A DNA stretch of 42,184 nucleotides from a virus. Taxonomy: Duplodnaviria; Heunggongvirae; Uroviricota; Caudoviricetes. The position numbers are program-made. Below, in pieces: positions 12,001 to 15,000 of this stretch. The stretch's first letter is position 1. Every line of letters begins with the position of its first letter. The DNA lies in IMG/VR virus record IMGVR_UViG_2579779052_000008, positions 1 to 42,184 of that record; one strand, given 5' to 3'.

Positions 12001-15000
12001 AATCGCAAGACCGGCAGCAAGCCCGACGACGCCGCGAATAACCCGGGGATTTTCATCCGCAAACTTCGTGAATTTCTCCCCCAACTCCCCCAGCCATTGC
12101 GTGATATTTTTGGCGTCACCAGAAAATGCGCCGCCAATAGCCGCAAGGCCGTTAGTTGCGGTCCCCGTCATTGCCTCCCACAGGTTGGACAGCGTACCAA
12201 GCTGGGCCTGAACACGTTTATTCAGGCTGGCCTGTTTATTCATCTTCTGCTGGATCTGATCGTAGCCATCCTTTCCTTTATCGATTAGTGCATTGACCAC
12301 CTGAAGGGTTTCGGCATCATCACCAAATATTGCCTTAAGTACACCTGTTCGCTTAACGTCGGTCAGTTTTCGCAGCTTTGCCAGTTGCCTGAACATGTTA
12401 TCAAGACCGCCAAAACTTCCTTTGCCGTCAGTAAAATCGAGCTGTACCCCGAGTTTCTGGCGGGCCATGATTTTATTGACGTCCCTGATTTTCTTAACGC
12501 TTAATCCGGACTGGATAACTTTTCGCAGGGCATTACCTGCCGACTCCCCGTTCATCCCCATCTGATCCATCATGACGCTGATGGGGGCAAGGCTCTGTGC
12601 AGCCTGAAGACCGTCCTTGTTCACCATCTTCAGAACAGAACTGGTTTTAGTGAAGAAGGACAACATGTTGGTATCGTCAACGCCCAGATAAAACGCCTTC
12701 TGGATAGTGTCGAACAGCCCCATCATGTCTTCTGACGCCGTTCCGGTAGCATCCTGCATCTTTGCAGCAAACTCAGCAGCCGCTTCCGGTGTTTTTTTCA
12801 GTTGTACCGCAAGATAAGCTGTCGCTTTACCCACACCGCCAAGAATGTTTTCTGCCGGGATCCCCTGACGCACCAGCATCTGCATCATGTTCTGGAAATC
12901 AGCCGTTGTACCGGGTAGCTGGTTACCCAGGCCAATAGCCAGTTTATTGATGTCCTGAAAGCTCTTTCCAACCTCGCCATTCGCATCCATCATGGCGACT
13001 TTCAGCCCGGTGGCGGCGTTTTCCTGATCGGCATAAGATTTCAGGGAAAGCGTCAGACCCGCTGCCAGTCCGCCACCAAGCGCCAGCCCACCCTTTGACG
13101 CTTCTTCCGCCTGGCGTTTAAATCCCCGGATTTTCTTTTGCATTTTCGACAGCGCGGGAGAAAGCCTGTCGACACCGGTGATCAACGCCTTAAGCTCAAA
13201 TTCAGCCATGTGTGCGTTTCTCCTGCTCTATCCTGTTTGCCTGACTGACCAGCAAGGGAATTTCACTGATCGGCATATTCAGCAATTCGAAGGGATTAAT
13301 GCGCCAGTAACTGGCGCAGTCAAAGAAGCGATCAGTGAGGTATTCAGCCGTCAGGCCTGGAGGAAAAAACCGGCCACAAGCCACGCCGCTGCATTCAGGT
13401 CTGCCGGAGACATCTGGTCGACAGAGCTTTGCGGCACTTTCGCCAGCCGCACGATGTATTTCGATACCACATGCGCCAGAAGTCTGACGGACTCATCCTG
13501 ATTCATCTGGTAGGGATATCCCAGCTCGCGGACATCTTTCCCGGTGGGCTCATCAAACTCCAGTACGGAGAGTGTCTCGCCATGAGCGGTAATCGGTTTC
13601 TTTAACTCAAGCTCTTTCATTACTGGTAATCCCCTTCTTCACCGTGGAACTCAAGATCGACCGTGCCTTCTTCGGCATTATGGTTCGCTTCGCCGTGCAG
13701 CCAGGCAGACGACAGTACATAGACCTGACCGTTCGCCAGCTCGGCAGTGATGGTCATCTCATCAGACGAGGTGATTTTGCTCACCGGAAAATTCTTCGGC
13801 ACCTTGAAGGTCCCTTTGACATAAGGTGCACGGTGAGTTTCCTTGCGGTCCACTGAACCGTCCAGGCCGATGATGTCATCGTTAACCGTTTTGTTCATGG
13901 GCACCTCAATGCCGCCGGTCAGCGATAGCTGCTGACCGTCAATTTTGAAATAACAGGTTCCCCCGATACGGGCCATTATGCAGACTCCTCTGAATACTGA
14001 AGACGGAACTGGTTAACCACGGCAAAGACACGCAACTGGTTAACATAGTCAGGCGGGAACAGCGTGTTCAGGCGGTTCGGATCGCTGGCATCACGCTCCA
14101 CAACCAGGTACTGCTTAAACAGTTCGTAGTTTTCCACAATCCCCGCACGCTCGAGCTGACGGTAGGTTGCCAGCAGTTCCCCTTTGATCACCGCCGGGGT
14201 GACAATCGCCTGACCGGGACCAAAGCGGGTACCGTCACTGGCAAGCTTGTGACGCCCGTACTTACTGGTAATGACGGATTTCAGTTTGCGCAGTACATAC
14301 GCGCTGGTATGCAGTGTCTCACTGTCGAGGTAGCTGTTATCCGCAACCCCGTAAGCGTTTTTCCTGTACGTGGTGACATCACGCTGAGTGCGCAGTACCC
14401 CACTTTCGACATACGCCGTTGCCACGCCATGAGACAGCAGGGTCTGTTGTTCGGTCATCGTGAACCGTTTCCCCTTCGGCGCAGGCAGCATACCCACCAG
14501 CTCACCGGTCTGCGTGGGACGTGCCGGATCGTTGCGAATAAACACCGCTGCGCGGGCGGTACGGCTTGCCGCCAGCTCGTCAGCAGGCGTCTGGGTCTCT
14601 TTTTCGTACCCCGCCAGGGTAATGTGCTGCTGGTTAAACTGGTCACCTGCGGTCACCAGTTCTGACAGCGTGCCGATCTTTGCCGTATACACATGACCAT
14701 ACAGCTGACGCGCATAGCTCCAGCGACCGCTGGTATCGTTCATCTCGGTCACCAGCGTGTTAACGGAGGCCGTGTCGTTGAATGGCAGGCCGATATAATC
14801 AAACGGCTCATCCGCCATTGCAGCCACCGCGCCGGTGAGAACAGGAGAGCCCGTTCCGGCGGTCCCCGTCGCCACGGCAATCTGTACGCCCGCTGGCAGC
14901 ACTTCACCCCCACCAAAGCCGTAGTAATTGAGGCTGACAGGAATTTCATTCCCGCAAAGCCCCTTATGACGCGCGGTCAGTGTGACCACGCCAGCCGAAG

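What the first reader, a model, noticed from the sequence alone, without database searches (positions are those of the whole stretch)
13351..13384. Programmed -1 frameshift site (TTTTTTC) joining the tail chaperone to an extension ORF
The chaperone ORF and a -1 frame ORF overlap by 34 nt, and the overlap contains the slippery heptamer T TTT TTC at 13363-13369 in the sense strand. This is the G/GT-type arrangement conserved upstream of tape-measure genes and explains the otherwise odd 60-aa track ORF.
Basis: partly seen in the sequence, partly recalled or inferred. Interest (0 to 1): 0.35.

Follow-up and report, generated by a model that had tools for sequence, protein, structure and literature searches.

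The report
Tail chaperone -1 frameshift site
An SfV-like E. coli prophage has the usual "slippery" U UUU UUC site at the end of its tail-assembly chaperone gene, letting a few ribosomes slip back one base to make a longer second protein; this is real and strongly conserved, but it is an ordinary phage feature that public annotations omit.

Summary
On the minus strand an 89-aa tail assembly chaperone gene (13351-13620, Pfam PF10109) lies between the tail tube gene and the tape-measure gene. It overlaps a -1 frame ORF by 34 nt. The overlap holds an in-frame X_XXY_YYZ heptamer, T_TTT_TTC, at 13369-13363.

The heptamer (TTTTTTC or TTTTTTT) sits at the homologous position in all 26 diverse relatives examined (down to about 36% protein identity) and in 77 of 80 close copies. 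The base before the run stays T even where the amino acid changes.

The -1 frame stays open for 50-59 codons. It carries invariant residues and a clear coding signature: 51% synonymous codon differences against 9-11% in the other frames. It usually has no start codon of its own, and it ends at or over the tape-measure start.

Phage P2 gpE belongs to the same Pfam family. Its annotated -1 shift (TTTTTTG) falls at the aligned G-F-F/L codons with nearly the same geometry.

I found no conserved stimulatory RNA structure or Shine-Dalgarno-like element, as is reported for P2. The predicted product is a 139-aa, 15.8-kDa fusion. No protein data were available. This is a new member of a known kind, of low interest, and useful mainly as an annotation fix.

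The parts
13351..13620 (-). Tail assembly chaperone gene, zero frame (89 aa, 9.9 kDa), the analogue of lambda gpG and P2 gpE
   Evidence: The ORF appears. It matches PF10109 Phage_TAC_7 at E 1.9e-16, 60.3 bits, residues 4-86 on profile positions 2-78 of 79. RefSeq and GenBank relatives annotate it as 'phage tail assembly protein' or 'small tail protein E'.
13363..13369 (-). Slippery heptamer T_TTT_TTC (U_UUU_UUC in the mRNA). UUU sits in the P site and UUC in the A site; both Phe tRNAs can re-pair on UUU UUU after a -1 slip
   Evidence: Sequence and phase were read. The run sits at offset 251 in 21 of 21 window/GTDB loci, and at the homologous position in 5 of 5 phage genomes. It is present in 77 of 80 close IMG/VR copies. 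The motif is shift-prone in E. coli (PMC4066793).
13202..13363 (-). -1 frame extension (53 codons plus TGA), the analogue of the lambda T segment and P2 E'. Base 13363 is read twice
   Evidence: The translation is PPGLTAEYLTDRFFDCASYWRINPFELLNMPISEIPLLVSQANRIEQEKRTHG*. It is conserved in all relatives with invariant A, W, P, A, R and I residues. Codon differences are 51% synonymous in this frame against 9-11% in the other two. It matches phrog_32181.
13202..13620 (-). Predicted frameshift fusion CDS, complement(join(13202..13363,13363..13620)): 139 aa, 15.8 kDa
   Evidence: Assembled and translated. It aligns colinearly with P2 E+E' by hhalign (E 2.4e-4, 119 columns).
11419..13209 (-). Tape measure protein gene (596 aa). 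Its ATG overlaps the extension's stop by 8 nt
   Evidence: PF10145 PhageMin_Tail at E 1.2e-26. The overlap geometry is shown. P2 E'/T has the same 8-nt overlap.
13620..13976 (-). Tail tube gene (118 aa) immediately upstream
   Evidence: PF10618 Tail_tube at E 3.3e-33.
13976..15472 (-). Tail sheath gene (498 aa)
   Evidence: PF04984, PF17482 and PF17481.
13300..13318 (-). Local hairpin UGCGCCAG-UUA-CUGGCGCA inside the extension, 45 nt 3' of the heptamer. It is probably not part of the frameshift signal
   Evidence: It appears in the MFE and centroid folds. Across 18 relatives 78.5% of cells are paired, with a few compensatory changes. RNAalifold finds no consensus structure for the region.

Best explanation
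This is a programmed -1 ribosomal frameshift of the G/GT (P2 E/E+E') type in the tail module of an SfV-like myovirus prophage. Most ribosomes translate the chaperone gene to its TGA and make the 89-aa chaperone. A minority slip back one base when UUU is in the P site and UUC is in the A site of U_UUU_UUC. Both Phe tRNAs re-pair on UUU UUU, and translation continues in the -1 frame for 53 codons, ending on the tape-measure start. The result is a 139-aa protein that has the chaperone's N-terminal 86 residues plus a conserved C-terminal extension. By analogy with lambda gpG/gpGT, both proteins would coat the tape-measure protein, and the rarer extension would recruit or organise the tube around it. 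The shift rate would set the ratio of the two products, and neither protein would end up in the virion. Shown here: the anatomy, the phase of the heptamer, its nucleotide-level conservation, purifying selection on the -1 frame, the lack of independent initiation signals, and homology to P2 gpE. Inferred: that the shift actually happens, that it is ribosomal, how efficient it is, and what the fusion does.
For: The gene order sheath-tube-chaperone-extension-TMP has Pfam support. The heptamer is in phase. TTTTTT[C/T] lies at the homologous position in 26 of 26 diverse loci, from E. coli to Burkholderia and Derxia, while neighbouring synonymous sites vary; the preceding Ala codon appears as GCC, GCT, GCG and GCA. 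In ST64B, phiP27 and SfIV the preceding residue changes from Gly to Asn or Arg, yet its third base stays T. The -1 extension is 50-59 aa in every relative, with six invariant residues. Codon differences are 51% synonymous in the -1 frame against 9-11% in the other frames; variable columns by codon position are 26, 16 and 38; and the -1 frame has no stops while the other frames have 2-7. No start codon lies in the -1 frame upstream of the site in 12 of 18 relatives. The extension's stop overlaps or abuts the TMP start in nearly all loci. P2 gpE is in the same Pfam family over the same profile span. P2's annotated -1 site TTTTTTG lies at offset 248, against 251 here, on the aligned G-F-L/G-F-F codons; the products are 91/142 aa against 89/139 aa; and both have an 8-nt overlap with the TMP gene. 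U_UU.U_UU.C and U_UU.U_UU.U shift above 0.1% in E. coli without stimulators, and H_HH.U_UU.Y is among the most efficient motif classes (PMC4066793). The G/GT frameshift is conserved in long-tailed phages (Xu et al. 2004, as summarised in PMC5009743, and PMC2628397).
Against: No protein or ribosome-profiling evidence was available. No conserved 3' stimulatory structure was found: fold z-scores are -0.79 and -1.34, and RNAalifold predicts no pairs. No conserved upstream SD-like element was found, so efficiency may be low; P2 is reported to lack such a structure as well. Three of 80 close copies carry GGG instead of GGT, which shortens the run. One E. coli copy has lost the site altogether, so individual prophages can tolerate the loss, possibly because they are decaying. 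None of the GenBank or RefSeq records examined annotates the shift.
Confidence: 0.88

Rival explanations
1. Transcriptional slippage. RNA polymerase stutters on the T6 run and adds one U to a fraction of the mRNAs. Standard translation of those transcripts then yields the same 139-aa fusion.
For: The site is a homopolymer: T6 here, and T7 in ST64B, phiP27, SfIV and two MAGs. One inserted U gives exactly the -1 frame. Sharma et al. note that U7 and A7 runs are depleted in E. coli genes in all frames, possibly because of transcriptional slippage. The sequence data here cannot separate the two mechanisms.
Against: From general knowledge rather than a test here, efficient slippage by E. coli RNA polymerase usually needs runs of about 8-9 or more. 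The run is held at 6-7 and always in the X_XXY_YYZ phase. The homologous P2 site TTTTTTG is described as a translational frameshift (record annotation; PMC3091744). The motif is independently known to promote ribosomal -1 shifting in E. coli.
Confidence: 0.07
2. There is no recoding. The 60-aa ORF (13202-13384) is translated on its own from its GTG at 13384 as a separate small tail protein.
For: A GTG-started ORF exists. Some annotators have called the equivalent ORF separately: 'hypothetical protein' in E. coli FHI_NMBU_10, and phrog_32181.
Against: The GTG is not conserved. Twelve of 18 diverse relatives have no ATG, GTG or TTG in that frame between the last upstream stop and the heptamer. 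No SD-like sequence precedes it. By contrast, the heptamer is conserved at the nucleotide level.
Confidence: 0.03
3. The site is a chance T-run and the 140-nt stretch before the tape-measure gene is non-coding spacer.
For: Public records leave this stretch unannotated. In-frame heptamers do occur by chance, 35 times in the window's long ORFs.
Against: The -1 frame shows a coding signature and invariant residues across relatives down to about 36% identity. The heptamer is conserved in position and phase in 26 of 26 diverse loci.
Confidence: 0.02

Closest known systems
Phage P2 gpE / gpE+E' -1 frameshift (Christie et al. 2002; annotated in NC_001895)
   Same: The chaperone belongs to the same Pfam family, PF10109, matched over the same profile span. 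The direction is the same (-1) and the T6 run is the same, on the aligned Gly-Phe-Phe/Leu codons at offset 251 against 248. Product sizes are 89/139 aa against 91/142 aa. The extension's stop overlaps the tape-measure ATG by 8 nt in both. Neither has a conserved 3' RNA structure.
   Different: The last base of the heptamer is C (or T in some relatives) rather than G, so the A-site codon is Phe UUC rather than Leu UUG. Overall identity is only about 22-27%. The extension does not reach Pfam PF06528 (Phage_P2_GpE) and resembles E' only weakly (hhalign E 0.013). The surrounding tail module is Mu/SfV-like, not P2-like.
Phage lambda gpG / gpGT (Levin, Hendrix & Casjens 1993; Xu, Hendrix & Duda 2004, 2013, 2014)
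   Same: The position is the same, between the major tail gene and the tape-measure gene. [quoted passage not shown]
   Different: Lambda is a siphovirus and uses G_GGA_AAG. I found no detectable sequence similarity, and the Pfam family differs. The functional details (the T domain binding gpV, and a ratio of about 30:1) are known for lambda only and are extrapolated here.
Phage Mu gp41 with its -2 frameshift extension (Xu et al. 2004; Baranov et al. 2006)
   Same: The flanking sheath, tube, tape-measure and DNA-circulation genes are Mu-like. The chaperone sits in the same slot. Mu gp41 touches PF10109 weakly (24.7 bits). The extension families show a faint similarity (hhalign E 3.7e-4 over 27 columns).
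   Different: Mu shifts by -2 on a G-run, C_GGG_GGC. Here the -2/+1 frame closes after 6 codons and the -1 frame is the conserved one. Mu gp41 is 144 aa and belongs to PF23746, which the window protein does not hit. BLASTP finds no similarity.
E. coli dnaX and IS3-family -1 frameshift signals
   Same: Tandem tRNA slippage on an X_XXY_YYZ heptamer in an enterobacterial host.
   Different: Those signals rely on an upstream SD-like element and/or a hairpin or pseudoknot 5-9 nt downstream. Neither is conserved here.

Membership tests
G/GT-type tail assembly chaperone frameshift (Xu, Hendrix & Duda 2004) | Two overlapping ORFs located between the major tail (tube) gene and the tape-measure gene | tested here: met
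   The order is tube 13620-13976, chaperone 13351-13620, -1 ORF 13202-13384, TMP 11419-13209.
G/GT-type tail assembly chaperone frameshift (Xu, Hendrix & Duda 2004) | A slippery sequence in the overlap, in a phase that lets the tRNAs re-pair in the new frame | tested here: met
   T_TTT_TTC at 13369-13363 is in phase with the chaperone frame. The motif class is shift-prone in E. coli (PMC4066793).
G/GT-type tail assembly chaperone frameshift (Xu, Hendrix & Duda 2004) | The site and the second-frame ORF are conserved among relatives despite sequence divergence | tested here: met
   Conserved in 26 of 26 diverse loci and 77 of 80 close copies. The extension is 50-59 aa with invariant residues, and the -1 frame has a coding signature.
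G/GT-type tail assembly chaperone frameshift (Xu, Hendrix & Duda 2004) | The second ORF has no translation start of its own | tested here: met
   No start codon in the -1 frame upstream of the site in 12 of 18 relatives. The window's GTG is not conserved and has no SD.
G/GT-type tail assembly chaperone frameshift (Xu, Hendrix & Duda 2004) | Both products are made at a fixed ratio, both are required for tail assembly, and both are absent from virions | not testable with these tools
   This needs western blotting or mass spectrometry plus genetics. No proteomic data for SfV-like phages turned up in the papers searched.
Pfam PF10109 Phage_TAC_7 (P2 gpE, Mu gp41, gp14) | A score above the curated gathering threshold (25 bits) across the domain | tested here: met
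   60.3 bits, residues 4-86 on profile 2-78 of 79. P2 gpE scores 47.8 bits on the same span.
P2 E/E+E' frameshift | A -1 shift on a T6N heptamer at the C-terminal Gly-Phe-x codons of the PF10109 domain | tested here: met
   GGT TTT TTC here against GGT TTT TTG in P2. The two codon sets align in hhalign and at the end of the Pfam profile.
P2 E/E+E' frameshift | The extension belongs to PF06528 (Phage_P2_GpE) | tested here: not met
   Four diverse extensions gave no PF06528 hit at E up to 10. The only resemblance is a weak profile match: hhalign E 0.013 over 32 columns, sharing A..W...P.EL....A.R.
Mu gp41 -2 frameshift | A -2 (+1 frame) extension reached from a G-run, and a PF23746 Gp41_Mu domain | tested here: not met
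   The -2 frame closes after 6 codons in the window. There is no PF23746 hit and no BLASTP similarity to Mu gp41.
Stimulated bacterial -1 PRF (dnaX or IS3 type) | A conserved SD-like element 6-17 nt upstream and/or a stable structure 5-9 nt downstream | tested here: not met
   Anti-SD duplex energies range from +0.4 to -11.5 kcal/mol with no consistency, and are -2.7 in the window. The 40-nt downstream fold is only -5.4 kcal/mol in the window. RNAalifold predicts no pairs in 18 sequences.

The most novel reading that the evidence does not exclude
The most novel reading still open concerns the small hairpin at 13300-13318, 45 nt downstream of the slip site and partly maintained across the family with some compensatory changes. 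It could be a functional RNA element, for example one that paces ribosomes to tune the shift at long range or that couples the extension's termination to tape-measure initiation. A second, evolutionary point is that this Mu-like tail module keeps the P2-type -1 T-run site while Mu itself uses a -2 G-run. That would make the PF10109 family a natural series for studying how a recoding site changes mechanism while its function stays the same.
Probability: 0.1. Interest if true: 0.35.

Novelty: new member of a known kind. Interest (0 to 1): 0.15.

Why it matters
The main value is annotation. The fusion CDS, complement(join(13202..13363,13363..13620)), is missing from every SfV, SfI, SfII, SfIV, ST64B, phiP27, SKA5 and AH07 record and from the two RefSeq E. 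coli prophage records I inspected. Matching DNA is present in about 1,090 of 5,426 complete E. coli genomes. The roughly 140-nt "gap" before the tape-measure gene is in fact coding. The PHROG family phrog_32181, labelled "unknown function", is this extension called as a stand-alone ORF.

Biologically it extends the P2-type T-run frameshift to the SfV/ST64B/phiP27 group of Mu-like tails. It also shows that one chaperone family (PF10109) uses -1 in some lineages and -2 in Mu. It does not change the current understanding of recoding or of tail assembly.

Tried and rejected
1. Downstream stimulatory structure. Single-sequence folds of 93 nt and 221 nt gave z-scores of -0.79 and -1.34. RNAalifold on 18 diverse sequences predicted no pairs. 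Folds of the 40 nt downstream ranged from -2.7 to -21.7 kcal/mol with no common geometry. I reject this as a conserved feature.

2. Upstream SD-like stimulator. Anti-SD duplex energies were inconsistent. Rejected.

3. The hairpin at +45 nt as a stimulator. It is too far from the mRNA entry channel, so I kept it only as a side observation.

4. Pfam, NCBIfam and PDB sequence searches for the extension or the fusion. There was no family for the extension and no solved relative.

5. Database proteins that looked like natural "hard-wired" fusions (P0001-P0006). They are singletons with several scattered indels, so they are assembly errors.

6. BLASTP against Mu gp41 found no alignment.

7. Primary papers that would say whether SfV's site was already listed were not in the held library: Xu et al. 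2004, Allison et al. 2002 and Christie et al. 2002. The PRFect supplement did not list the accessions. I therefore could not establish whether this exact site has been published.

8. Structure prediction of the fusion was not run, because it would not bear on whether the shift occurs.
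Full report
**What is there**

The region is part of a tail operon on the minus strand. It contains, in order:
- sheath, 13976-15472 (498 aa; PF04984, PF17482, PF17481)
- tube, 13620-13976 (118 aa; PF10618)
- an 89-aa ORF, 13351-13620, that matches PF10109 "Phage tail assembly chaperone proteins, E, or 41 or 14" (60.3 bits against a cut-off of 25)
- the tape-measure gene, 11419-13209 (596 aa; PF10145)

The DNA is 97% identical to Shigella/E. coli phages SfII, SfI, SfV and SKA5. The 551 nt around the site are 100% identical to a prophage in E. coli AMSHJX01. Similar DNA occurs in 1,086 of 5,426 complete E. coli genomes.

**Checking the observation**

The sense strand reads ...GTG GCC GGT TTT TTC CTC CAG GCC TGA. 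TTTTTTC occupies 13369 down to 13363 and is phased T_TTT_TTC in the chaperone frame.

After a -1 slip the reading continues ...AGFF|PPGLTAEYLTDRFFDCASYWRINPFELLNMPISEIPLLVSQANRIEQEKRTHG*. That is 53 codons, ending in a TGA at 13202-13204, which overlaps the tape-measure ATG in ATGGCTGA. The predicted products are 89 aa (9.9 kDa) and 139 aa (15.8 kDa).

In-frame XXXYYYZ heptamers occur about 0.003 times per codon in the window's long ORFs (35 in 11,758 codons). The expectation for an 11-codon overlap is therefore about 0.03. On its own this is suggestive but not decisive.

**Conservation**

Three samples of relatives were examined.

- *GTDB genomes.* A scan of one genome per species returned 20 loci with 40-100% chaperone identity, from Escherichia, Shigella, Edwardsiella, Buttiauxella, Citrobacter, Pantoea, Erwinia and Kosakonia out to the betaproteobacterium Derxia. 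In the window and all 20 loci, TTTTTT[C/T] lies at exactly offset 251 from the start codon and in the same phase.
- *Sequenced phages.* A tblastn of the fusion against phage genomes found two-frame matches in SfV, SfI, SfII, SfIV, ST64B, phiP27, EPP-1, AH07, F1055 and BgVeeders33. The five I opened keep the run: T_TTT_TTT in ST64B, phiP27 and SfIV, and T_TTT_TTC in AH07 and BgVeeders33.
- *Close IMG/VR copies.* Of 80 close copies, 77 keep GGTTTTTTC and three have GGG in place of GGT.

The conservation is at the nucleotide level, not only the protein level. The Ala codon before the site appears as GCC, GCT, GCG and GCA, whereas the Gly codon always ends in T in these diverse loci. In ST64B, phiP27 and SfIV the residue there is Asn or Arg, yet its third base is still T.

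**The -1 frame codes for protein**

- In every relative the -1 frame stays open for 50-59 codons and ends at or over the tape-measure start.
- The extension carries six invariant residues (A, W, P, A, R, I) within a motif resembling FDCA.YWRINP.ELL...QANRI.
- Among eleven length-matched relatives, and excluding both overlaps, variable columns by codon position are 26, 16 and 38.
- In the same set, 51% of codon differences are synonymous in the -1 frame, against 9% and 11% in the other two frames.
- Again in that set, the -1 frame has no stops, while the other frames have 2-7.

**Independent initiation is unlikely**

In 12 of 18 diverse relatives there is no ATG, GTG or TTG in the -1 frame between the last upstream stop and the heptamer. 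The window's GTG at 13384 is not conserved and has no SD.

**Mechanism**

The best explanation is tandem -1 slippage of two tRNA-Phe on U_UUU_UUC. Sharma et al. (PMC4066793) measured all heptamers in E. coli. They list U_UU.U_UU.C and U_UU.U_UU.U among the motifs that shift above 0.1% without any stimulator, and they place H_HH.U_UU.Y among the most efficient classes.

I looked for stimulators and found none that is conserved.
- Fold z-scores are -0.79 and -1.34.
- RNAalifold gives no pairs over 18 sequences.
- Anti-SD pairing upstream is inconsistent, and the 40 nt downstream fold weakly in the window (-5.4 kcal/mol).

This matches the report that P2 and P2-like E+E' sites have no downstream hairpin (PMC3091744). 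It argues for a modest efficiency set by the heptamer alone. The function of the two products is inferred from lambda gpG/gpGT (PMC5009743) and was not tested here: the chaperone would coat the tape measure, and the rarer extended form would link it to the tube subunit.

**Comparison with known systems**

*P2.* P2 gpE is itself a PF10109 member over the same profile span (47.8 bits). Its record annotates a -1 frameshift with products E (91 aa) and E+E' (142 aa), and E' overlaps the tape-measure gene T by 8 nt. The P2 site GGT TTT TTG lies at offset 248. A profile of 18 fusion proteins aligns colinearly with P2 E+E' (hhalign E 2.4e-4, 119 columns) and places GFF on GFL. The site is therefore most likely homologous to the P2 site. 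The extension does not reach Pfam PF06528 and resembles E' only weakly (E 0.013), so I do not file it as a member of that family.

*Mu.* Mu's sheath, tube and tape-measure genes are the nearest named relatives of this module. However, Mu shifts by -2 on a G-run. The window's -2 frame closes after 6 codons, and its chaperone does not match Mu's PF23746 domain. So this element works like P2 E/E+E' and lambda G/GT, inside a Mu-like tail.

**Rival explanations**

- *Transcriptional slippage on the T-run.* Sequence alone cannot exclude it. It is disfavoured by the short run length, its strict phase, and the known ribosomal shiftiness of the motif. I give it about 0.07.
- *Separate initiation of the 60-aa ORF.* About 0.03.
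- *A chance run in a non-coding spacer.* About 0.02, and contradicted.

**Annotation status and novelty**

None of the public records I opened annotates the shift. SfV, SKA5, ST64B, phiP27, SfIV, BgVeeders33, AH07 and RefSeq E. coli AMSHJX01 all leave a gap of roughly 85-140 nt before the tape-measure gene. Where the extension is called at all, it is a "hypothetical protein" or phrog_32181, "unknown function".

I could not read Xu et al. 2004, Allison et al. 2002 or Christie et al. 2002. I therefore cannot say whether the SfV-group site has already been listed in print. I rate it a new member of a known kind. Interest is low (0.15), and the value lies mainly in correcting annotation.

Noticed in passing
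window 13300-13318 (minus strand): An 8-bp hairpin, UGCGCCAG-UUA-CUGGCGCA, lies inside the extension (codons C-A-S-Y-W-R), 45 nt 3' of the slip site. Across 18 diverse relatives 78.5% of cells are paired, with a few compensatory changes in the outer pairs. It is too distant to be a classic frameshift stimulator, and it may simply reflect the conserved peptide.
   Followed up: partly
window 10920-11402 (+ strand): A 160-aa ORF lies in the opposite orientation between the tape-measure gene and the DNA-circulation gene. It has a hydrophobic N-terminal segment and a PF12869 tRNA_anti-like (OB-fold) domain (E 6e-19). It looks like a moron-type insert in the tail operon. Matches to SfV-group phages stop near window 11615, so the 3' end of the tape-measure gene and this ORF are not SfV-like.
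   Followed up: partly
L004 (E. coli FHI_NMBU_10, NZ_CP046539) 695-775: One prophage copy has the slippery run mutated and shortened (GGTTTTCCC), which destroys the heptamer and gives a 91-aa chaperone. PGAP then calls the extension as a separate 'hypothetical protein'. This is probably a decaying prophage. In addition, 3 of 80 IMG/VR close copies have GGG instead of GGT before the run.
   Followed up: partly
L025-L027 (ST64B, phiP27, SfIV), locus positions about 646-658: A divergent subgroup uses T_TTT_TTT. There the zero frame runs on for about 23 more codons after the site, so the overlap between the two frames is much longer. The residue before the run is Asn or Arg instead of Gly, but its third base is still T.
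   Followed up: yes
proteins P0001-P0006: Six database proteins appear to be fused or extended chaperone-extension products. They are singletons from ENA and Logan assemblies with several scattered frame errors, so they are assembly artefacts and not natural fusions.
   Followed up: yes
window 13202-13209 (minus strand); L031 (P2) 851-858: The extension's stop and the tape-measure start overlap by 8 nt (ATGGCTGA) in the window and in most relatives. P2 E' and T overlap by the same 8 nt. This suggests translational coupling of tape-measure initiation to the upstream reading frames.
   Followed up: no
L030 (phage Mu) 3459-3463: In Mu the extension lies in the +1/-2 frame after CGG GGG CGA, which is consistent with the published -2 shift. 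The RefSeq record annotates only the 144-aa gp41, with no joined CDS.
   Followed up: partly
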